This document shows, piece after piece, positions 51,495-59,767 of a DNA stretch of 64,000 nucleotides. Under the pieces are notes generated by a model. That model saw nothing but the letters and a program-made list of their open reading frames with translations, did no database searches and was not told the origin of the DNA. Within the stretch, counting starts at the first letter, position 1, and the number at the start of each line of letters is the position of its first letter. A program made the translations under genes and the position numbers. Origin of the DNA: an uncultured Bacteroidales bacterium (GTDB lineage: Bacteria > Bacteroidota > Bacteroidia > Bacteroidales > UBA12077); NCBI GenBank assembly GCA_964587535.1, contig CAZPMA010000002.1, forward strand, positions 4,847 to 68,846, given 5' to 3'.

Positions 51495-52622
51495 TTACTT
51501 TTTAATCAATTTAATAATCTTTAAAGCAAGGTCTAAAAACACAATTTTATTATACGCATTCATTTCAATATCTATATGCGCTCTATTTACAACTTCGTAT
51601 AACTGATAAACATTCTCTTTGTTTATAAATTGTGAGAATTTCTCAGAAAAATCCAGTTCCTTGTTTGTTAAATGTACTAATTCCCTGCTTTTTATATTTA
51701 GCATAAAGTTTTCTCTTATTAACCTTAAGGCATATGCTAAAAAACTTTTTTGTTTTTCACGTCCTAATTTTGAAATTTCATCTGCCCATTCAATTAGCTC
51801 AATTACTTTTCGTTGATAAGAAAGTCGCATTAAGGTCATAAAATTTTCGAGATTATAATTCTCCTGATCAGAAGTTTGAATCAGATGTTGAGCATCATAA
51901 TAATTACCATCAGACAGATGAGCAATATCCCGGGCCATTTGTGGTTCAAGGCCAAAATTATCACTTAAAGCCTGCATCATGCTGTCATTATCAATTTTAT
52001 GTATTTTGATTAATTGTGTTCGTGACAATATTGTAGGAATTATTTGTTCTGAATTTTCAGCCACTAATAAAAATAAAGTCTTTTCTGGTGGTTCTTCAAT
52101 AAGTTTTAACAGTTTATTTGCTGCGTAGGCATTCATTTTCTCTGGAAGCCAAATGATCATAATCTTATATTCAGATTCAAACGTTTTAAGGTTTAGCTTC
52201 CTAAGAATTTCATAACTTTCATTTTTATTTATTATTCCCTGTTTATTTTCCACATCAATTATCTCATACCATTTATTTTCTATCAAATACGGATTTTCTA
52301 ATATTGTTTCTCTCCACTGCTCGATATAATCATCACTAACAGGATCCTTTTTAATTGTTTTAGAAGTTGCAACAGGATAAACAAAATGCAAGTCGGGATG
52401 TACAAGTTTTTTAACTTTTTGGCACGATGGACATACTCCGCATGAATCATTCTCCTGTTTATTTTCGCACGATAAATATTGTGCATATGCAATAGCTAAT
52501 GGTAAATTACCAGAACCTTTTGGTCCCAGAAATAATTGCGCATGGCTTACCCGATTTTCTTTAACCGTTTGAATTAACTTAACCTTTATTTCTTTGTGTC
52601 CTATTACTTCTTTAAATTGCAT
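51495..52622 (-). CDS. holB: DNA polymerase III delta-prime subunit
   Basis: 375 aa. HAQLFLGPKGSGNLPLAIAYAQYL, Zn-module cysteines (CGVCPSCQK), LLKLIEEPP, SRTQ sensor motif. Confidence 0.85.
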   Translation of the reverse strand: MQFKEVIGHKEIKVKLIQTVKENRVSHAQLFLGPKGSGNLPLAIAYAQYLSCENKQENDSCGVCPSCQKVKKLVHPDLHFVYPVATSKTIKKDPVSDDYIEQWRETILENPYLIENKWYEIIDVENKQGIINKNESYEILRKLNLKTFESEYKIMIIWLPEKMNAYAANKLLKLIEEPPEKTLFLLVAENSEQIIPTILSRTQLIKIHKIDNDSMMQALSDNFGLEPQMARDIAHLSDGNYYDAQHLIQTSDQENYNLENFMTLMRLSYQRKVIELIEWADEISKLGREKQKSFLAYALRLIRENFMLNIKSRELVHLTNKELDFSEKFSQFINKENVYQLYEVVNRAHIDIEMNAYNKIVFLDLALKIIKLIKK

Positions 52623-52747
52623 ATGTATTGTTAGTTATATTCTAATTTTCTTGCTATTAATAATTTGTTAATTTCTGTTATATCAGTACTCAAAGGTAAA
52701 TAAAAATATATGTTTATCTTTAACACTTCAATATAAAAGTAACCGAC

Positions 52748-55129
52748 ATGTATTCAATTGACAATTATAATTTCGAAGGTAAAAAAGTATTAATTCGTGT
52801 AGATTTTAACGTACCGTTAAATGACAAACTAGAAATTTCAGATGATACAAGAATTGTAACAGCAGTACCAACGATTCAGAAAATTTTAGCCGAAGGAGGC
52901 TCTATCATTTTATTAACCCACCTGGGAAGACCAAAAGGACAGTATAACGAAAAAATGTCTGTTAAAATAATACTTCCACGTGTAAGTAAATTATTAGGTC
53001 GGGAAGTAAAATTTGCGTCTGACTGTGTCGGTCCGGATGCCAAGAAAAAAGCTGAAGAACTTAAACCTGGTGAAGTCCTTTTATTAGAAAACTTGCGATT
53101 TCATAAAGAAGAAACAAATGCAGATGAAGAGTTTGCCAGAAAACTGGCAAGCTTAGGGGATGCATATGTAAACGATGCATTTGGAACTGCACACAGAAAA
53201 CATGCATCAACGTTTACTATTGCAAAATACTTCCCAAAAAACAGCATGTTTGGGTATCTTGTTGAAAACGAAATTAATAACATTGATAAAATATTACATC
53301 AACCAATTCATCCATTCACTGCAATTTTAGGGGGATCAAAAGTCTCTACTAAAATTCACATTATTGAATCTTTAATTGAAAAAGTTGATAATTTAATTAT
53401 TGCCGGGGGTATTGGTTTTACTTTTGCAAAAGCAATGGGTGGTAAAATAGGGAATTCATTGGTTGAGGATGACTTTTTAAATTTTGCTAAACATATTATC
53501 AGTAAAGCAGAAAAAAATAAAGTTAAATTATACTTACCTACAGATTGCATAGTTGCTAATGAATTTAAAAATGATGCTAAGATTGACCACTGCAATATTA
53601 TGGAAATACCAGATGGATGGATGGGATTAGATATTGGTATTAAATCTGCAAATCGTTTTGCTGAAGTTATAGAAAATTCGAAAAAAATACTCTGGAATGG
53701 TCCAATTGGGGTTTTTGAAATGCCGAGCTTCGCCATGGGTACTTTGAAAGTTGCAATGTCTGTTGCCAGAGCTACAGATAAAGGAGCATTTTCATTAATT
53801 GGTGGGGGCGATTCAATTGCTGCAGTTAATAAATATAGCCTGGCACATAAGATTAGTTATATCTCAACAGCAGGTGGTGCTTTGCTTGAATATCTGGAAG
53901 GAAAAGAATTGCCAAGTATTAAAGCAATTAAGCAGAATCTAACAATTGATAAGTATAATTTTGAAGGTAAAAAAGTGTTAATGCGTGTTGATTTTAATGT
54001 GCCATTAGATGAAAATTTTGAGATAATGGATACAACCAGAATCGTAACAGCATTACCAACTGTTCGTAAAATTTTAGCTGAAGGAGGATCCGTAATTTTC
54101 CTAACTCATATAGGTCGCCCAAAAGGTAAAGTAGATGAAAAATACTCCGTGAAACATATTTTACCATATTTAAATAAAGTACTTGATGGTAAAGTAAAAT
54201 TCGTTGATGACTGTGTAGGAGAAAAGGCAATTATTGCATCTACAGTTTTAAATCCTGGCGAATGCCTGTTACTTGAAAATCTGAGATTTCATAAAGAAGA
54301 AACAGAAGCTGACGAAAATTTTGCAAAAAAATTATCTGAACTTGGCGACGCATATGTTTTTAATGCTTTTGGGACTGCACACAGGGCTCATGCGTCGACA
54401 TATACTATTGCTAAATTCTTCCCGAATGATAAAATGTTTGGATATCTGGTAGAAAATGAAATTAGTAATATTGACAAAGTTGTTAAAAAAGGGAAAAGAC
54501 CATTTACTGCTATTTTAGGTGGGTCAAAAGTTTCTACCAAAATTCATATCATAGAAGCTTTAATTGAAAAAGTTGATAACCTGATTATAGGTGGTGGAAT
54601 TGCCTATACATTCTCTAAAGCAATGGGTGGTAAAATTGGTGATTCTTTAGTAGAAAATGATTATATTGATGTAGCTAAAAATATAATCATTAAAGCAAAA
54701 GAAAAAAACATAAACCTATACTTACCTACCGATTGTATCATTGCGGATGATTTTAAAAACGATGCAAATATTGAACATTGCGAAATTAATCAGATTAAAG
54801 ATGGATGGATGGGATTAGATGCAGGTATAAAATCTACCAACAAGTTTACTGAAGTTATTGAAAGTTCTGCTACAATATTATGGAATGGTCCTGTGGGAGT
54901 TTTTGAAATGTCGAATTTCTCGATGGGCACATTAAAAATAGCAATGGCAGTTGCTCGCGCAACAGATAAAGGAGCATTCTCATTAATTGGAGGTGGAGAT
55001 TCTATCTCCGCAGTTAATAAATTTAGTCTTGCTCATAAAATAAGTTATATTTCAACTGCTGGTGGTGCTTTATTAGAATATATTGAAGGAAAACAGTTGC
55101 CTGCATTAAAGGCAATTGTTGAAGATATT
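52748..55129 (+). repeat. Internal tandem duplication, about 1.19 kb per unit, diverged (PGK unit 1 / PGK unit 2)
   Basis: Junction at 53941/53942: ...AAG CAG AAT CTA | ACA ATT GAT AAG TAT AAT TTT GAA GGT. Unit 2 aligns to unit 1 from codon 3. The units look roughly 70% identical in amino acids by eye, with many synonymous differences even in blocks with identical residues. Confidence 0.85.
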
Positions 55130-55132
55130 TAA
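52748..55132 (+). CDS. pgk: Tandem double phosphoglycerate kinase: two complete PGK units fused in one polypeptide
   Basis: 794 aa. Unit 1 is residues 1-398 (nt 52748-53941) and unit 2 is residues 399-794 (nt 53942-55129). Each has RVDFNVP, D(D/T)TRI, TH(L/I)GRPKG, LENLRFHKEE, AFGTAHR(K/A)HAST, AILGGSKVSTKIHII, WNGP(I/V)GVFEM, IGGGDSI, STAGGALLEY. Confidence 0.85.
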   Translation: MYSIDNYNFEGKKVLIRVDFNVPLNDKLEISDDTRIVTAVPTIQKILAEGGSIILLTHLGRPKGQYNEKMSVKIILPRVSKLLGREVKFASDCVGPDAKKKAEELKPGEVLLLENLRFHKEETNADEEFARKLASLGDAYVNDAFGTAHRKHASTFTIAKYFPKNSMFGYLVENEINNIDKILHQPIHPFTAILGGSKVSTKIHIIESLIEKVDNLIIAGGIGFTFAKAMGGKIGNSLVEDDFLNFAKHIISKAEKNKVKLYLPTDCIVANEFKNDAKIDHCNIMEIPDGWMGLDIGIKSANRFAEVIENSKKILWNGPIGVFEMPSFAMGTLKVAMSVARATDKGAFSLIGGGDSIAAVNKYSLAHKISYISTAGGALLEYLEGKELPSIKAIKQNLTIDKYNFEGKKVLMRVDFNVPLDENFEIMDTTRIVTALPTVRKILAEGGSVIFLTHIGRPKGKVDEKYSVKHILPYLNKVLDGKVKFVDDCVGEKAIIASTVLNPGECLLLENLRFHKEETEADENFAKKLSELGDAYVFNAFGTAHRAHASTYTIAKFFPNDKMFGYLVENEISNIDKVVKKGKRPFTAILGGSKVSTKIHIIEALIEKVDNLIIGGGIAYTFSKAMGGKIGDSLVENDYIDVAKNIIIKAKEKNINLYLPTDCIIADDFKNDANIEHCEINQIKDGWMGLDAGIKSTNKFTEVIESSATILWNGPVGVFEMSNFSMGTLKIAMAVARATDKGAFSLIGGGDSISAVNKFSLAHKISYISTAGGALLEYIEGKQLPALKAIVEDI

Positions 55133-55448: not shown

Positions 55449-56735
55449 ATGCTCGATAAATATAATATTCCATCTATACAAGATGCAGACCTAAATGGCA
55501 AAGTTGTTTTAGTTCGAGTAGATCATAATGTTGTGAAAAAAGGCATAATACATGATCCATATCGAATTGATGCCACTATTGGAACTTTATACCACATTAA
55601 TGCCAGAGGAGGTAAGATAATTCTGATGTCGCATGTTGGCAGACCAAAAGATAAAAAAACAGGAGATATAATAATAAGTAAAGATACATCTGTTGAACCT
55701 ATTGTTGAGTACCTTAGAAACAAGCTCCACATCAACATGAAAATTCCTGATTTTTATCCACACGAAAACAAGGGATACATAGGAATTGAAACATCCATAA
55801 ATCATTTAATTCGAGAGCTTAAAGACGGTAAAATCGACGGAATTTATTTGCCAAATACCAGATGGTTCCAAGGAGAAGAAGCAAAAGGTGAAGATCAGGA
55901 TAGATTTGCCAATCAATTAGCCGGATTAGCAGATATCTTTGTAAATGATGCATTTGGATCATGGCAAGCACATGCTTCTACAGTAGGTGTTAATAAATAT
56001 TTGCCATCCTATGCCGGGTTTTTAATGCAAAAAGAAATTGAAAATCTGGAAAGAATTTATAGCCCACAATCGCCATTTATTGCTGTTGTTGCCGGCTCAA
56101 AGTTCGACACAAAAATTGATTCATTATATGCATTAATTAAAAAAGCAGATTACCTGGTCCTTGGTGGAGTAATCTATAATGCGTATTTGTGTGCGAAATA
56201 TGGAATCGAAATCAAAGGAATATCTAAGGACGATTTAGAACATGCAAAAGAATTCGTTAAATTTAGTGAACAATATCCGGGTAAACTGATAGAGCTTCCT
56301 TTTATTATTGAGTCTGATACCTTAGATGGTAAATTTGAAGGAAAAAATAGAGTGCACAACATTCATGAATTAAAATCAGGAACAAAGTTAAATTATATAT
56401 TAGATGTTGCTAAGCAATCCTTCTATGAAGAAAATATACATAAGATATTTTCTTCGGCAAGGACAATTTTTGTGAATGCGGTAATGGGATTTACACCACA
56501 TTTTAACGAAGGTACAATTGCTTTGGACGAATTAATTGATGAAAATGTGGAAGCAGTTAAGTTATATGGTGGTGGAGATACCATGCAAGAGTTAAAAAGA
56601 TTACTGCCCGGATTGTACATTGTTGCATTAGATAGTCCTAAATATTACATTTTTACTGGTGGCGGAGCAGTTTTAAAAGCAATACAAGAGGGAACAACTT
56701 TGGGAATTGAACCGGTAAAGGTTTTAACAAAATAA
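55449..56735 (+). CDS. Divergent phosphoglycerate-kinase-family paralog, substrate uncertain
   Basis: 428 aa. The PGK scaffold is recognisable (MSHVGRPKD, VNDAFGS..AHAST, AGSKFDTKI, YGGGDT, FTGGGAVL). Several substrate motifs are altered: RVDHNVV for RVDFNVP, LPNTRW for LENLRF, AFGSWQAHAS for AFGTAHRAHAS, NAVMGFTPHF for NGPxGVFE. Confidence 0.7.
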   Translation: MLDKYNIPSIQDADLNGKVVLVRVDHNVVKKGIIHDPYRIDATIGTLYHINARGGKIILMSHVGRPKDKKTGDIIISKDTSVEPIVEYLRNKLHINMKIPDFYPHENKGYIGIETSINHLIRELKDGKIDGIYLPNTRWFQGEEAKGEDQDRFANQLAGLADIFVNDAFGSWQAHASTVGVNKYLPSYAGFLMQKEIENLERIYSPQSPFIAVVAGSKFDTKIDSLYALIKKADYLVLGGVIYNAYLCAKYGIEIKGISKDDLEHAKEFVKFSEQYPGKLIELPFIIESDTLDGKFEGKNRVHNIHELKSGTKLNYILDVAKQSFYEENIHKIFSSARTIFVNAVMGFTPHFNEGTIALDELIDENVEAVKLYGGGDTMQELKRLLPGLYIVALDSPKYYIFTGGGAVLKAIQEGTTLGIEPVKVLTK

Positions 56736-56767
56736 ATATTTTTTGCATTTTTGCATTATAAAAATTA

Positions 56768-56800
56768 GAAGTCAGTTTGAATACTGGCTTCTTTTCTTCT
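56768..56800 (+). terminator. Rho-independent terminator after the PGK paralog
   Basis: GAAGTCAGT-ttgaat-ACTGGCTTC (9 bp including one G-U pair) followed by TTTTCTTCT. It lies inside the N-terminal extension of the PMM ORF given by the ORF track, which supports the later ATG for that gene. Confidence 0.7.
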
Positions 56801-56830
56801 AAATATTTCTTTTTAAATAATTTAATATAT

Positions 56831-58168
56831 ATGAAAGCGTTTAAGGCATACGATATTCGTGGTATTTACAATGATGATTTTAATAAGCAAGATGCTTACA
56901 AGATTGGGTTTTTTCTTCCGGAATTATTACAAGCCGACAATATTCTAGTGGGGCGTGATGTTAGAGTTTCATCTGATGAAATCTTTGAACATCTGGCACA
57001 AGGTATTATTGATAGTGGAGCTAATGTTTATAACATTGGAATTTCAACAACTCCAATGGTGTATTATATAACTGCTAAACACAAATTTGCCGCATCTGTT
57101 CAAATCACTGCATCGCATAATGCAAGAGAATACAATGGGATGAAAATATCTAAAAGCAATGCTTTACCTGTAGGTTTCGATACCGGGTTAAATAAACTTT
57201 TAGAAATGATACAAACCCGAGAGATAGAAATAGCCGATAAAAAAGGTAAGATTGTGGATTACAATGTAAAAGATGAATATGTTCAGTTTTTAAAATCATA
57301 TGTTCAGGATTATTCAAATCTTAATATTGCTGTAGACTGTTCAAATGGCATGGCTGCTTTCTTAATCAAAAAGTTTTTGGGTAAAAACCCTATTTATTTA
57401 TACGACAAATTGGATGGCACATTCCCAAATCATGAACCTAATCCATTAATTGAAGAAAACGTTGAAGATCTTAAAAAAGCTGTATTAGATAATGCCTGTG
57501 ATCTTGGAATAATTTTCGACGGTGATGCCGACAGGGTTATGTTTGTTGATGAAAAAGGACAATTCATTTCGCCAGACTTAATAATCGGTTTAATGGGTCA
57601 TTATTTTCTGGAAAAAGAAAAAGGCGCGGTACTGGAAGATATCAGAACATCAAAAGCAGTAAAAAAATATATTGAAGATTTAGGTGGTGAAATGCATACA
57701 TGGAGAGTAGGAAGGGCTTATGCAGCTCCTAAACTTCGTGAAATTAATGGCATATATGGTGGCGAATTAGCAGGACATTATTACTTCCGCGATTTCTTCT
57801 ATTCTGATTCGGGAATAATGGCAGCATTAATTGTTTTAAATCTATTATCCCGATTTAAAAATGAAGGTAAAACAATGTCTGATTTAATTTCTCGTATTAG
57901 TAAATATGCGAACTCCGGCGAGATTAACTTTAAAATAGAACAAAAACAAGAAGCTATAGAAGCAATTAAAAACTACTTTGTAACTGAAGAAGAACCTATG
58001 GAAATTCTTGATTTCGATGGTTGCCGGCTAGAATTTAAGGACTGGTGGTTTAACGTACGACCATCGAATACAGAACCTTATTTAAGACTTTTAGCAGAAG
58101 CTGATAATGAAGAACTCTTGAATAAAAAGCTGGAAGAAATAAAAACCATCATTAAGAAATTTAAATAA
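56831..58168 (+). CDS. Phosphomannomutase/phosphoglucomutase (alpha-D-phosphohexomutase family)
   Basis: Start placed at ATG 56831 (MKAFKAYDIRGIY...), 445 aa. Catalytic Ser loop TASHNAREYNGMK, Mg loop FDGDADR, sugar loop GGELAGH, phosphate loop RPSNTEP. Confidence 0.88.
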   Translation: MKAFKAYDIRGIYNDDFNKQDAYKIGFFLPELLQADNILVGRDVRVSSDEIFEHLAQGIIDSGANVYNIGISTTPMVYYITAKHKFAASVQITASHNAREYNGMKISKSNALPVGFDTGLNKLLEMIQTREIEIADKKGKIVDYNVKDEYVQFLKSYVQDYSNLNIAVDCSNGMAAFLIKKFLGKNPIYLYDKLDGTFPNHEPNPLIEENVEDLKKAVLDNACDLGIIFDGDADRVMFVDEKGQFISPDLIIGLMGHYFLEKEKGAVLEDIRTSKAVKKYIEDLGGEMHTWRVGRAYAAPKLREINGIYGGELAGHYYFRDFFYSDSGIMAALIVLNLLSRFKNEGKTMSDLISRISKYANSGEINFKIEQKQEAIEAIKNYFVTEEEPMEILDFDGCRLEFKDWWFNVRPSNTEPYLRLLAEADNEELLNKKLEEIKTIIKKFK

Positions 58169-58174
58169 TATACT

Positions 58175-58200
58175 AAACCGAAGTCACCTTCGGTTTTTTT
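58175..58200. terminator. Rho-independent terminator between PMM/PGM and the convergent flippase gene
   Basis: AAACCGAAG-tcac-CTTCGGTTT followed by TTTT. It starts 7 nt after the PMM stop and abuts the flippase stop codon on the opposite strand. Confidence 0.85.
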
Positions 58201-59692
58201 ATTCGTTTCCATTAAAAAGCAAATTGATAATCATTTTTAGATGTAACAATCGCAAAACAAAGGCAAGAGTTAATGTAATTAGTAATATCCCTATCAATTT
58301 AAAAATCCAGTAATAATCGAGTGAAATGGATAAACTTGATACAAAATAAACACCGACAACAAACAATATAAGTTTTATAAGAATATTTGCTTTAAATCTG
58401 AAGTTAAAAACCTTTTTAGCAACTATAAACTGAGCAATTGCCGAAATTGATTGTGTTATCAAACTAGCTACAGCTGATCCAATAGCAAAATACCTGGGAA
58501 TTAGTATAATATTTAATATGATATTTAATGTAACACTACTGGCAGCAATAATATTTAATTCTTTCAAATTTCCATTCGCAGTTAATAATGTACCAAAAAT
58601 ATACGATACCGAAATGCCAATAAAACAAAGAAGTAAAATTCCTAATATGGTTGAAGATGATGTTACATGATGTTTATACAATACATCCATAATCTCAACT
58701 TTATAAAAGAAAGCTGCTAAAGAAATTCCAATTGTCGGAACAATTAATAATAAAAATGAAAACAACGTGAGCTTATTTATTGATTCTTTTTGTTTAATCA
58801 TTTTTGAAAACATTGGCAGAAGCAATCCTGCATATAAAAATGCAAACATGGTTAAAGCATCTAAAATTCTATATCCTTGTGCATAAATCCCTGCTTGCTC
58901 TTTCCCATTAGGCAACATTCTTTCAAGCATAACAGAATCAATCCTATAATAAAACATCATAAGTAAAGCCAATACAGCAAAGGGATAACTCTTTTTTAAT
59001 ATTGCTATAAAATACTTTCGTTCAAGATTAAGCTTTGAAAATTCTGTTTTACCATATACAATGATTGTAGTAACAAACAAAGTAAGTGAATATGATACTG
59101 TTTGTGCATATACAAACCACTCAATCCTGAATTCAGTTTTTATCCATTTGCTCCATAAAAGAAAGCCACATAAGATAATCATCAATGTCCTATCTAAAAC
59201 AGAAATAAAACTATCCGTTTTAAATAAATGCAAGCCGCTTAAATTTGATCTTAAGTATAATATAAAAGAAGAAATAAACTGATTTAAGATTAAAAACAAT
59301 AAAATATAAAACTGTCGTGATGAATAGCCAATAAACACTGCTATTAACAATGTTAGCAGAGCGTAAATAAATGCCAGCAAAAACTTCAACCCTACAATAT
59401 TTGATAATGATTTGCTTAACAGATGATTATGCTGTGCGATATTTCTATTATTGTAATTTGTTATGCCAAGGTCTAGCAAAATATTTAACAACAACGAAAA
59501 GTTAAATAAAGAAAAATACAATCCATATTCTTCTGCTCCAACACTATTTTGCACAACCCTATCAATACCAAAAATCCAGAAGGGTTTTACTAATAGGTTT
59601 AGAAAAATAAGTAATGTAAGATTTGTAAAAAATTTTCTTCTCAAAATAAAAGTTTTTGAAATGTAAATGTAATAAAGTTTTACATTTCTCAT
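58199..59692 (-). CDS. wzx: Wzx-like oligosaccharide flippase (polysaccharide biosynthesis protein, MOP superfamily)
   Basis: About 12 predicted hydrophobic helices and a typical ...KFFTNLTLLIFLNLLVKPFWIFGIDR N-terminal region. The start is ambiguous: TTG 59704, ATG 59692 or TTG 59644. A 10-bp hairpin (59659-59689) sits just after the ATG. Confidence 0.7.
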   Translation of the reverse strand: MRNVKLYYIYISKTFILRRKFFTNLTLLIFLNLLVKPFWIFGIDRVVQNSVGAEEYGLYFSLFNFSLLLNILLDLGITNYNNRNIAQHNHLLSKSLSNIVGLKFLLAFIYALLTLLIAVFIGYSSRQFYILLFLILNQFISSFILYLRSNLSGLHLFKTDSFISVLDRTLMIILCGFLLWSKWIKTEFRIEWFVYAQTVSYSLTLFVTTIIVYGKTEFSKLNLERKYFIAILKKSYPFAVLALLMMFYYRIDSVMLERMLPNGKEQAGIYAQGYRILDALTMFAFLYAGLLLPMFSKMIKQKESINKLTLFSFLLLIVPTIGISLAAFFYKVEIMDVLYKHHVTSSSTILGILLLCFIGISVSYIFGTLLTANGNLKELNIIAASSVTLNIILNIILIPRYFAIGSAVASLITQSISAIAQFIVAKKVFNFRFKANILIKLILFVVGVYFVSSLSISLDYYWIFKLIGILLITLTLAFVLRLLHLKMIINLLFNGNE

Positions 59693-59767
59693 TAATGAAA
59701 TCAATAAGTAATTATTCGTTATTTTTTATCATATTTGTTCTAATTTACTACTTTAAATCTAATCGTA

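What the first reader, a model, noticed from the sequence alone, without database searches (positions are those of the whole stretch)
52748..55132. Head-to-tail fusion of two complete phosphoglycerate kinases in one 794-aa polypeptide
PGK is normally a roughly 400-aa two-domain hinge-bending monomer. Here one uninterrupted ORF holds two full PGK units. Unit 1 ends ...LPSIKAIKQNL and runs straight into unit 2, TIDKYNFEGKKVLMRVDFNVP..., with no linker. Unit 2 has lost only its first two codons, and ACA now occupies the position where unit 2's own C-terminus (...KAIVEDI*) predicts unit 1's stop. Both units keep every 3-PG-binding and nucleotide/catalytic motif I know: RVDFNVP, DxTRI, HxGRP, LENLRF, AFGTAHRxHAS, GGSKVSTKI, NGPxGVFE, GGGDS, STAGGA. 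In the most conserved protein blocks (for example GTLK(V/I)AM(S/A)VARATDKGAFSLIGGGDSI) the DNA differs at many synonymous sites. That pattern argues for an old duplication with purifying selection on both halves, not an assembly artefact or recent gene conversion. The only PGK fusion I can recall is PGK-TIM in Thermotoga; I know of no described PGK-PGK. A covalent pseudo-dimer could mean cooperativity, channeling or division of labour between the units.
Basis: partly seen in the sequence, partly recalled or inferred. Interest (0 to 1): 0.8.

Follow-up and report, generated by a model that had tools for sequence, protein, structure and literature searches.

The report
Conserved tandem double phosphoglycerate kinase
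One gene in an uncultured group of Bacteroidales bacteria encodes two complete copies of the glycolytic enzyme phosphoglycerate kinase joined head to tail with no linker, and this form, conserved across the group, does not appear in the literature I searched.

Summary
ORF 52748..55132 (+) encodes 794 aa with two full-length PGK domains: unit 1 is aa 1-398, unit 2 is aa 399-794. The units align without gaps and are 72% identical.

It is not an artefact. All 26 complete loci from other species-level genomes have the same uninterrupted 794-795-codon ORF with an identical junction register, and more than 110 protein clusters share it.

The gene sits at the ancestral pgk locus, divergent from holB. 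That is where related Bacteroidales with a single PGK keep their one pgk.

Both units keep every known substrate-binding and catalytic residue. Both are under equally strong purifying selection (dN/dS about 0.05), and synonymous sites between them are saturated. Only 4 fixed differences separate the units, none at ligand residues. So I see two equivalent active sites, not division of labour.

An in-frame tandem duplication of codons 3-398 explains the 398 + 396 aa lengths in a single step.

- Across subclades the two units evolved in concert.
- Side lineages have lost catalytic residues in one unit.
- An independent PGK-PGK exists in Holophaga-like bacteria.

A third, very different and extremely conserved PGK paralogue lies just downstream. 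I found no paper or solved structure describing PGK-PGK. I class it as a new variant of a known kind, of moderate interest.

The parts
52748..55132 (+). Complete PGK-PGK gene (794 codons plus stop)
   Evidence: ORF listing and translation. Two full PF00162 matches. 100%-identical proteins on two other ENA contigs; one of them was read and carries the same locus.
52748..53941 (+). PGK unit 1 (aa 1-398), with all 3-PG, nucleotide and catalytic residues intact
   Evidence: Motif conservation in 110 homologues. dN/dS 0.044. The best Foldseek matches each cover only half of the model (one unit's worth), TM 0.95-0.96 to solved bacterial PGKs.
53942..55129 (+). PGK unit 2 (aa 399-794). It lacks only the first two codons of a stand-alone PGK. 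All catalytic residues are intact in this genome.
   Evidence: (dN/dS 0.046).
53930..53950 (+). Zero-linker junction, K-Q-N-L | T-I-D (codons 395-401)
   Evidence: The register is identical in 110 proteins. Amino acids are conserved while the Leu and Thr codons vary synonymously, and there is no conserved out-of-frame stop or slippery site. This is the lowest-confidence internal stretch of the AlphaFold model, block pLDDT 67.
51495..52622 (-). holB (DNA polymerase III delta'), the divergent neighbour and synteny anchor showing that this is the ancestral pgk locus
   Evidence: psp1-holB | pgk synteny occurs in loci with the double PGK and in Marinifilum and other single-PGK loci L034, L038, L039. 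Pfam DNA_pol3_delta2 on the identical gene in L241.
52623..52747 (.). 125-bp divergent intergenic region, presumed to hold the promoter of the PGK-PGK gene
   Evidence: Inferred from position only. The sigma-70 scan found no more sites than shuffled sequence, and there is no TAnnTTTG motif here.
55449..56735 (+). pgk3: a third, divergent PGK-family gene (428 aa, about 30% identical to either unit), conserved immediately downstream
   Evidence: PF00162 E = 5e-84. Syntenic in about 20 loci at 87-96% identity. The family is 75-81% identical across several phyla. Changed residues: H169W, R170Q and loss of E343, in human PGK1 numbering assigned from memory.
56777..58168 (+). Phosphoglucomutase/phosphomannomutase gene, the last gene of the conserved cluster. 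The true start is probably the ATG at 56831.
   Evidence: Four PGM_PMM Pfam domains. Conserved after pgk3. Most homologue matches begin between ORF residues 11 and 19.

Best explanation
This is the organism's housekeeping phosphoglycerate kinase, converted into a covalent tandem enzyme. An in-frame tandem duplication of codons 3-398 of the ancestral pgk gene produced M-Y-[unit]-[unit]. It happened in place, next to holB. That accounts exactly for the 398 + 396 aa lengths and the absence of a linker.

Shown: both units are complete two-domain PGKs, keep all known 3-PG, nucleotide and phosphotransfer residues, and are held under equal strong purifying selection.

Inferred: each unit catalyses 1,3-bisphosphoglycerate + ADP <-> 3-phosphoglycerate + ATP, giving two equivalent active sites per polypeptide.

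Inferred from general PGK structure knowledge: both termini of a PGK lie on the N-terminal (3-PG-binding) domain. A zero-length junction should therefore place the two N-domains side by side, with the nucleotide-binding C-domains at the periphery, as in C1-N1-N2-C2. The invariant junction length and the lineage-specific co-variation of the two N-domains fit a fixed N1:N2 contact.

Not established: what selective benefit the fusion brings (enzyme dosage, stability, or coupled domain closure).
For: The gene is real and conserved:
- More than 110 clusters at 90% identity have about 794 aa, down to 63% identity to the window protein.
- 27 GTDB species genomes carry it, including a complete 4.6-Mb chromosome.
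- 26 of 26 complete loci are uninterrupted, and an independent ENA assembly has the identical locus.

Ancestral locus: psp1-holB | pgk synteny is shared with single-PGK Marinifilum and other loci.

Single origin:
- Units 1 and 2 together are monophyletic against 53 single PGKs, with 100/100 bootstrap support.
- Substitutions relative to the single PGKs are shared by both units in nearly all sequences.
- The junction register is identical in 110 proteins.

Both units look functional:
- All catalytic and binding motifs are invariant or nearly so in both units.
- dN/dS is 0.044 for unit 1 and 0.046 for unit 2.
- Only 4 fixed differences separate the units in the 66-member core clade, none at ligand residues.
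- The best Foldseek matches each cover half the model (TMq 0.48), i.e. one unit, at TM 0.95-0.96 to solved PGKs.

The junction is under protein-level selection: amino acids are conserved while codons vary synonymously.

The architecture recurs: an independent zero-linker PGK-PGK with intact motifs exists in a Holophaga-like lineage.
Against: - No activity, expression or proteomic data exist.
- AlphaFold gives high local confidence (pLDDT 89) but pTM of only 0.56. A fixed inter-unit geometry is therefore not predicted with confidence, and the coordinates could not be inspected.
- Some side lineages have lost catalytic residues in one unit: the K594Q subclade, P0121/P0122 and P0124. Two active sites are therefore not always needed.
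- I could not check whether these genomes carry a further single pgk elsewhere.
- The concerted-evolution signal could instead come from repeated duplication.
Confidence: 0.78

Rival explanations
1. Division of labour. The two units have specialised, for example one for glycolysis and one for gluconeogenesis, or for different nucleotides, or one has become a regulatory or pseudo-enzyme half as in mammalian hexokinase I.
For: Side lineages show one unit losing catalytic residues. Unit 2 has K594Q with A540S in 8 clusters, five of which also carry G748S. Unit 1 has N317D or R61H in P0121/P0122, and D355N plus loss of the GG hinge motif in P0124. Unit 2 evolves slightly faster overall, with mean pairwise identity 0.708 against 0.723 for unit 1.
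Against: In the window protein and the 66-member core clade all catalytic residues are intact in both units. Only 4 positions differ consistently between the units (S3/T399, Q44/R440, L55/F451, K313/T709), and none is a known ligand contact. dN/dS is equal in the two units.
Confidence: 0.1
2. Artefact: two ordinary adjacent pgk genes merged by a sequencing or assembly error, or a collapsed or expanded repeat.
For: None was found. It is an a priori concern for metagenome assemblies containing tandem repeats.
Against: The same uninterrupted ORF occurs in 26 independently assembled species genomes from many studies, including a complete chromosome, and in independent contigs of the same population. 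The units are only 72.6% identical in DNA, too diverged for repeat mis-assembly. Junction codons vary synonymously while the peptide is conserved.
Confidence: 0.01
3. A polyprotein or two-product gene. The ORF is translated as one chain but yields two free PGK monomers of about 43 kDa, either by proteolysis or by internal initiation of unit 2.
For: In one divergent sublineage a Met lies four residues before unit 2, and NCBI annotates only that 400-aa product (P0273). The junction is the least confident internal segment of the model.
Against: No Met or alternative start is conserved near the junction in the window or the core clade. The junction peptide and its exact length are conserved, which a free linker or a start site would not need. 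The junction is not predicted to be disordered (pLDDT 67-83).
Confidence: 0.06
4. Nearly neutral dosage duplicate. The fusion is a frozen accident that simply doubles PGK active sites per transcript, with no interaction between the units.
For: It can arise in one step (398 + 396 aa). The two units are equivalent. AlphaFold predicts no confident inter-unit packing, pTM 0.56. It has arisen independently elsewhere.
Against: The junction length never varies in 110 sequences and the junction residues are conserved. The units co-vary by lineage, most strongly in the N-domain, at the protein level only. Both observations are hard to explain without physical or functional coupling, or repeated conversion.
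Confidence: 0.3

Closest known systems
Canonical monomeric bacterial PGK (PF00162; e.g. PDB 1PHP, 3Q3V, 1VPE)
   Same: Each unit is a complete PGK, 46-49% identical to solved bacterial PGKs with TM 0.95-0.96 and rmsd 1.2-1.7 A. All catalytic residues are present.
   Different: Two units sit in one chain with no linker. No solved chain covers more than half of the model (TMq at most 0.48). PGK is described as generally monomeric (PMC7729029).
Thermotoga maritima PGK-TIM fusion (NCBIfam NF010569)
   Same: A PGK covalently extended at its C-terminus by another glycolytic enzyme.
   Different: There is no TIM domain. The HMM match covers only profile positions 5-393 of 645, and the cut-off is passed (1011 against 883 bits) only because two PGK copies add up. 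No frameshift is involved.
Non-covalent oligomeric PGKs: homodimers in Pyrococcus, Methanothermus and Corynebacterium glutamicum, and a tetramer in Sulfolobus
   Same: More than one PGK active site per particle. Oligomerisation has been suggested to aid stability (PMC7729029).
   Different: Those are separate 45-kDa chains. Here the link is covalent, in a lineage with 31% G+C DNA, and nothing analysed here indicates thermophily.
Duplication-fusion glycolytic kinases: 100-kDa mammalian hexokinases and eukaryotic phosphofructokinase (from my own knowledge, not tested here)
   Same: Tandem duplication and fusion of a complete sugar-pathway kinase. The outcomes range from both halves active (hexokinase II; the window protein) to one half turned non-catalytic (hexokinase I; compare the K594Q subclade and P0124).
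   Different: The fold and family are unrelated. Nothing here points to an allosteric role for either half.
Engineered circular permutants of yeast PGK (PDB 1FW8)
   Same: The permutant sequence aligns with residues 70-461 of the window protein, straight across the natural junction. This shows that the termini of adjacent units are compatible with direct joining. A tandem fusion is the intermediate proposed in the 'permutation by duplication' model.
   Different: The natural protein keeps both complete units. No truncated permuted PGK derived from it was seen.

Membership tests
Phosphoglycerate kinase (PF00162 / EC 2.7.2.3) | Full-length match to the family profile | tested here: met
   Two stretches, each covering essentially the whole 379-position profile, E = 1.8e-302. 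PDB PGKs match at E down to 2e-121.
Phosphoglycerate kinase (PF00162 / EC 2.7.2.3) | Two-domain hinge-bending PGK fold | tested here: met
   AlphaFold model pLDDT 89.4. The top Foldseek matches cover half the model (one unit) at TM 0.95-0.96 and rmsd 1.2-1.7 A; the secondary-structure pattern repeats in both halves.
Phosphoglycerate kinase (PF00162 / EC 2.7.2.3) | 3-PG basic patch (human R38, H62, R65, R122, R170) plus D23 and N25 | tested here: met
   Present in both units of the window protein and invariant or nearly invariant in 110 homologues. The human numbering was assigned from memory.
Phosphoglycerate kinase (PF00162 / EC 2.7.2.3) | Nucleotide-binding and phosphotransfer residues (human K215, K219, N336, E343, D374) | tested here: met
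   Present in both units of the window protein. The K215 equivalent of unit 2 is Q in 8 of 110 homologues.
Phosphoglycerate kinase (PF00162 / EC 2.7.2.3) | Catalysis of 3-PG + ATP <-> 1,3-BPG + ADP by each unit | not testable with these tools
   Needs an enzyme assay of the full-length protein and of single-site mutants.
Bifunctional PGK/TIM (NCBIfam NF010569) | A triosephosphate isomerase domain C-terminal to PGK | tested here: not met
   Only profile positions 5-393 of 645 are matched, and Pfam finds no TIM domain. The score passes the cut-off spuriously.
Single-origin PGK-PGK clade of uncultured Bacteroidales | About 794 aa, a zero-linker junction in the same register, and location between holB and pgk3 | tested here: met
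   Units 1 and 2 together are monophyletic against single PGKs, 100/100.
Oligomeric (dimeric) PGKs | A defined unit-unit interface | tested here: inconclusive
   pTM 0.56 despite pLDDT 89. Model coordinates and PAE were not available.

The most novel reading that the evidence does not exclude
The fusion is an obligate pseudo-dimer. The two 3-PG-binding N-domains form a co-evolving interface, so that domain closure in one unit is coupled to the other, giving cooperativity or alternating sites. Alternatively, the paired 1,3-BPG sites dock onto GAPDH for channeling. It may work together with the neighbouring, extremely conserved pgk3 paralogue as a three-PGK system that separates glycolytic from gluconeogenic flux, or uses different phosphoryl donors.
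Probability: 0.15. Interest if true: 0.75.

Novelty: new variant of a known kind. Interest (0 to 1): 0.55.

Why it matters
PGK is the textbook monomeric hinge-bending enzyme. A natural tandem PGK with no linker, conserved over long evolutionary time, offers three things:
- A ready-made system to test whether two hinge-bending catalytic cycles can be mechanically coupled.
- A living example of the duplication-fusion route taken by hexokinase and phosphofructokinase. All stages are visible in one family: both halves active, one catalytic lysine lost, one half degenerate.
- A natural intermediate of the 'permutation by duplication' model.

On the practical side, automatic annotation mishandles it. 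NCBIfam's PGK/TIM model passes its cut-off, and in one MAG (metagenome-assembled genome) only unit 2 is annotated. Metabolic reconstructions of these sediment and groundwater Bacteroidales may therefore be wrong at this step.

Tried and rejected
- Assembly artefact: rejected.
- Programmed frameshift or hidden stop at the junction: the out-of-frame TAA in the window (CTA ACA) is not conserved, because other genomes use CTG/CTT/TTG and ACC/ACT/ACG.
- Internal promoter: one TAnnTTTG motif lies at 53956 inside unit 2's N-terminal codons, but it would start transcription after unit 2 begins. It follows from the K-Y-N-F-E codons and I treat it as chance.
- Sigma-70 promoter scan: no more sites than in shuffled sequence, and the consensus does not suit Bacteroidota.
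- Recent gene conversion: rejected, because synonymous differences between the units are at saturation in every region.
- Independent duplication in each subclade as the cause of the 'lineage' topology: judged unlikely. The junction register is identical in all sequences, and no single-unit PGK closer than about 63% identity was found.
- Simple reciprocal monophyly of unit 1 and unit 2: tested and not found.
- Inspection of inter-unit contacts: not possible, because the model coordinates are not exposed.
- Whole-genome check for another pgk in OY762280.1: not possible with these tools.
- Literature: four searches and one review found no PGK-PGK.
Full report
**1. Observation**

The window holds one uninterrupted ORF at 52748..55132 (+) of 794 codons. 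Pfam finds two full-length PGK domains (PF00162, E = 1.8e-302).

I split the protein at Leu398/Thr399. The halves are 398 and 396 aa and align without any internal gap. They are 72.0% identical in amino acids and 72.6% in DNA, and 123 of the 285 identical residues use different codons. Window G+C is 31%. The neighbouring genes (SprA, GldH, a T9SS sorting domain) are typical of Bacteroidota.

**2. Real gene or artefact**

- A search of 5.8 billion protein clusters returned more than 110 distinct clusters at 90% identity with 789-800 aa and two PGK domains, down to 63% identity to the window protein. Two ENA contigs encode 100%-identical proteins; I read one of them and it carries the same locus.
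- A scan of one genome per GTDB species found the double gene in 27 species. All are uncultured Bacteroidales or Bacteroidota MAGs (metagenome-assembled genomes) from many studies, and one is a complete 4.6-Mb chromosome, OY762280.1.
- In all 26 loci that contain the whole gene, the ORF is uninterrupted at 794-795 codons.
- The junction has the same register in 110 proteins.
- At the DNA level the junction peptide K-Q-N-L-T-I-D is kept while the Leu and Thr codons vary synonymously. There is no conserved out-of-frame stop or slippery site.

An artefact is excluded.

**3. Where the gene sits**

The order psp1 <- holB <- | -> PGK-PGK -> pgk3 -> pgm is conserved in about 20 loci. Marinifilum and other Bacteroidales with a single PGK have psp1 <- holB <- | -> pgk at the same place (L034, L038, L039). 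The double gene therefore occupies the ancestral pgk locus. Three MAGs (L111, L117, L149) have a single pgk followed by pgk3, in L111 and L117 directly after holB. The pgk-pgk3 adjacency is therefore older than the duplication.

**4. Origin**

- Units 1 and 2 together form a clade against 53 single PGKs, with 100/100 neighbour-joining bootstraps and a stem length of 0.126.
- Both units share substitutions at positions that are at least 95% conserved in single PGKs. Examples are GGAK to GGSK, and the A-to-T and S-to-T changes at alignment columns 40 and 59.
- The 398 + 396 aa lengths are exactly what a single in-frame tandem duplication of codons 3-398 would give. This is my inference.
- No single-unit PGK closer than about 63% identity was found, either in the genome scan or among 1.84 billion cluster representatives.

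**5. Are both halves functional?**

- Among 24 core-clade genomes the median dN/dS is 0.044 for unit 1 and 0.046 for unit 2. The closest genome pairs give 0.05-0.09 for both.
- dS between the units is 1.37 or more in every genome. The proportion of synonymous differences, about 0.7, equals the baseline obtained by comparing units from unrelated genomes.
- In the 66-member core clade only four positions differ consistently between the units: S3/T399, Q44/R440, L55/F451 and K313/T709. None is a known ligand contact.

The sequence therefore argues for two equivalent catalytic units. It argues against a relic half and against division of labour in this genome.

**6. Structure**

- AlphaFold2 with an 84-sequence alignment gives mean pLDDT 89.4 and the same secondary-structure pattern twice. 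pTM is only 0.56, and the junction block has pLDDT 67. The units are confidently PGK-like, but their mutual arrangement is not confidently predicted.
- Foldseek against the PDB matches half of the model (TMq 0.48), i.e. one unit, to bacterial PGKs at TM 0.95-0.96 and rmsd 1.2-1.7 A. No solved chain covers both units. No PDB sequence contains two PGKs.
- From general PGK structure knowledge, both termini lie on the N-domain. A zero-length junction should therefore place the two 3-PG-binding domains next to each other. This is an inference.
- The engineered circular permutant of yeast PGK (1FW8) aligns with residues 70-461, straight across the junction.

**7. An unexpected evolutionary pattern**

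- Unit 1 and unit 2 are reciprocally monophyletic only within the core clade.
- Between 11 subclades, four-point tests favour the topology ((A-u1, A-u2), (B-u1, B-u2)), often in 196-200 of 200 column bootstraps.
- Identity between the two units of one protein (median 71%) is equal to or higher than identity between matching units of distant subclades, 65-70%.
- The signal is mosaic. It is strongest in the variable part of the N-domain (alignment columns about 25-150) and absent around columns 150-225.
- It shows only at non-synonymous sites: pN is 0.21 within a genome against 0.29 between genomes, while pS is equal.

Two explanations remain: old intragenic gene conversion whose synonymous trace has since been erased, or protein-level co-evolution of the two N-domains. 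I could not separate them. Repeated independent duplications are unlikely, because the junction register is identical everywhere.

**8. Fates in side lineages and other occurrences**

- Eight clusters carry K594Q, which replaces the catalytic Lys of unit 2 (the equivalent of human K215), together with A540S; five of them also carry G748S.
- P0121 and P0122 have N317D in unit 1, and P0122 also has R61H. In the MAG encoding P0121, NCBI annotates only unit 2, as a 400-aa PGK.
- P0124 has a degenerate unit 1 (GGGDS to EGDNT, STAGGA to ENGNT) joined to an intact unit 2.
- An independent bacterial PGK-PGK exists: P0123 and P0271, 797 aa. Its closest single PGKs come from Holophaga MAGs. Its units are 72% identical, all motifs are intact, and the junction again has no linker.
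- Gastropod genomes predict proteins with two to four PGK-like units.

**9. What is known**

Four full-text searches and a comprehensive PGK review (PMC7729029) mention the following forms:
- monomers;
- homodimers in archaea and in Corynebacterium;
- a tetramer in Sulfolobus;
- PGK-TIM in Thermotoga;
- multidomain kinetoplastid PGKs.

None mentions PGK-PGK. The sequences are in public databases under the plain name 'phosphoglycerate kinase' or as hypothetical proteins. NCBIfam's 'bifunctional PGK/TIM' equivalog passes its cut-off (1011 against 883 bits) only because two PGK copies add up. No TIM domain is present.

**10. The neighbour pgk3 (55449..56735)**

- It is a PGK-family protein of 428 aa, about 30% identical to either unit.
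- It keeps the equivalents of R38, H62, R65, R122, K215, K219 and D374.
- It reads DAFGSWQ-H-ST where canonical PGKs have DAFGTAHRxHAS, so H169 becomes W and R170 becomes Q. It reads NAVMGFTP where they have NGPxGVFE, so E343 is lost.
- The family is remarkably conserved. It is 75-81% identical in MAGs labelled Bacteroidales, Desulfobacterales, Desulfobulbaceae, Holophagaceae, Spirochaetota and Altiarchaeales, and 148 of 428 positions are invariant across 118 clusters.
- Its function is unknown. It may deserve a study of its own.

**11. Verdict**

The object is a real, old PGK-PGK fusion selected on both halves, and I found no paper or solved structure describing it.

Three refinements apply. 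It is a clade-wide architecture that has arisen more than once. The two units look equivalent rather than specialised. They have evolved in concert.

I class it as a new variant of a known enzyme family, with moderate interest (0.55). The physiological advantage and any coupling between the units remain to be shown experimentally.

Noticed in passing
window 55449-56735 (+); loci L081-L160: pgk3 is a divergent PGK paralogue of 428 aa with changed 3-PG and nucleotide-contact residues: H169W, R170Q and loss of E343 (human numbering). It is nevertheless 75-81% identical across MAGs assigned to several phyla, and 148 of 428 positions are invariant. It occurs after PGK-PGK, after a single pgk, or alone; in two of the six stand-alone loci examined (L134, L119) it follows a roughly 447-aa ORF that I judged by eye to look like pgi. 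Function unknown.
   Followed up: partly
window 52748-55132; NCBIfam NF010569: The equivalog model 'bifunctional phosphoglycerate kinase/triosephosphate isomerase' passes its curated cut-off (1011 against 883 bits) because two PGK copies sum. No TIM domain is present, so there is a risk of automatic mis-annotation.
   Followed up: yes
P0121 / P0273 (cluster): In one MAG, NCBI annotates only unit 2 as a 400-aa PGK starting at an internal Met. JGI and ENA call the full 795-aa protein on the same contig. The architecture is therefore partly hidden in RefSeq-style annotation.
   Followed up: partly
P0123, P0271; nearest genomes L161-L166: An independent zero-linker PGK-PGK of 797 aa, with units 72% identical and all motifs intact, in a high-GC Holophaga-like bacterium. 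The position of unit 2's start codon is now Leu (ALTV|LPFRT).
   Followed up: partly
P0126, P0131, P0133 (Bulinus truncatus, Elysia marginata, Aplysia californica): Gastropod genomes predict proteins with two to four PGK-like units, up to 1918 aa. Several units have degenerate catalytic motifs.
   Followed up: no
P0063, P0066, P0068, P0069, P0071-P0074; P0121, P0122; P0124: Sublineages of the double PGK in which one unit has lost catalytic residues. Unit 2 carries K594Q in eight clusters. Unit 1 carries N317D or R61H in P0121/P0122, and D355N plus loss of the GG motif in P0124. These may be natural steps toward a pseudo-enzyme half.
   Followed up: partly
window residues 70-461 of the ORF (about 52955-54130): The engineered circularly permuted yeast PGK (PDB 1FW8) aligns continuously across the natural unit 1/unit 2 junction. 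The tandem fusion thus contains a 'pre-formed' permuted PGK.
   Followed up: no
L021/L095 (labelled Thiohalospira sp.), L123/L126 (Spirochaetota), L140/L147 (Hyphomicrobiales): Contigs in MAGs labelled as other phyla carry pgk3 at 78-91% identity to the window. L021/L095 has the whole Bacteroidales-type locus (psp1, holB, PGK-PGK, pgk3, pgm), which most likely reflects binning contamination; for the other four only pgk3 was seen, so mis-binning and real transfer remain open.
   Followed up: no
window 56777-56831 and 56767-56792: The pgm ORF as listed starts at a TTG, but most homologue matches begin between ORF residues 11 and 19 and the first in-frame ATG is at 56831. A terminator-like hairpin (56767-56792) lies between pgk3 and pgm and overlaps the listed TTG start.
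   Followed up: partly
window 58175-58196: A 9-bp-stem hairpin with T-runs on both strands lies between the convergent pgm and the polysaccharide-biosynthesis gene (58199-59704, minus strand). It is probably a bidirectional terminator.
   Followed up: no
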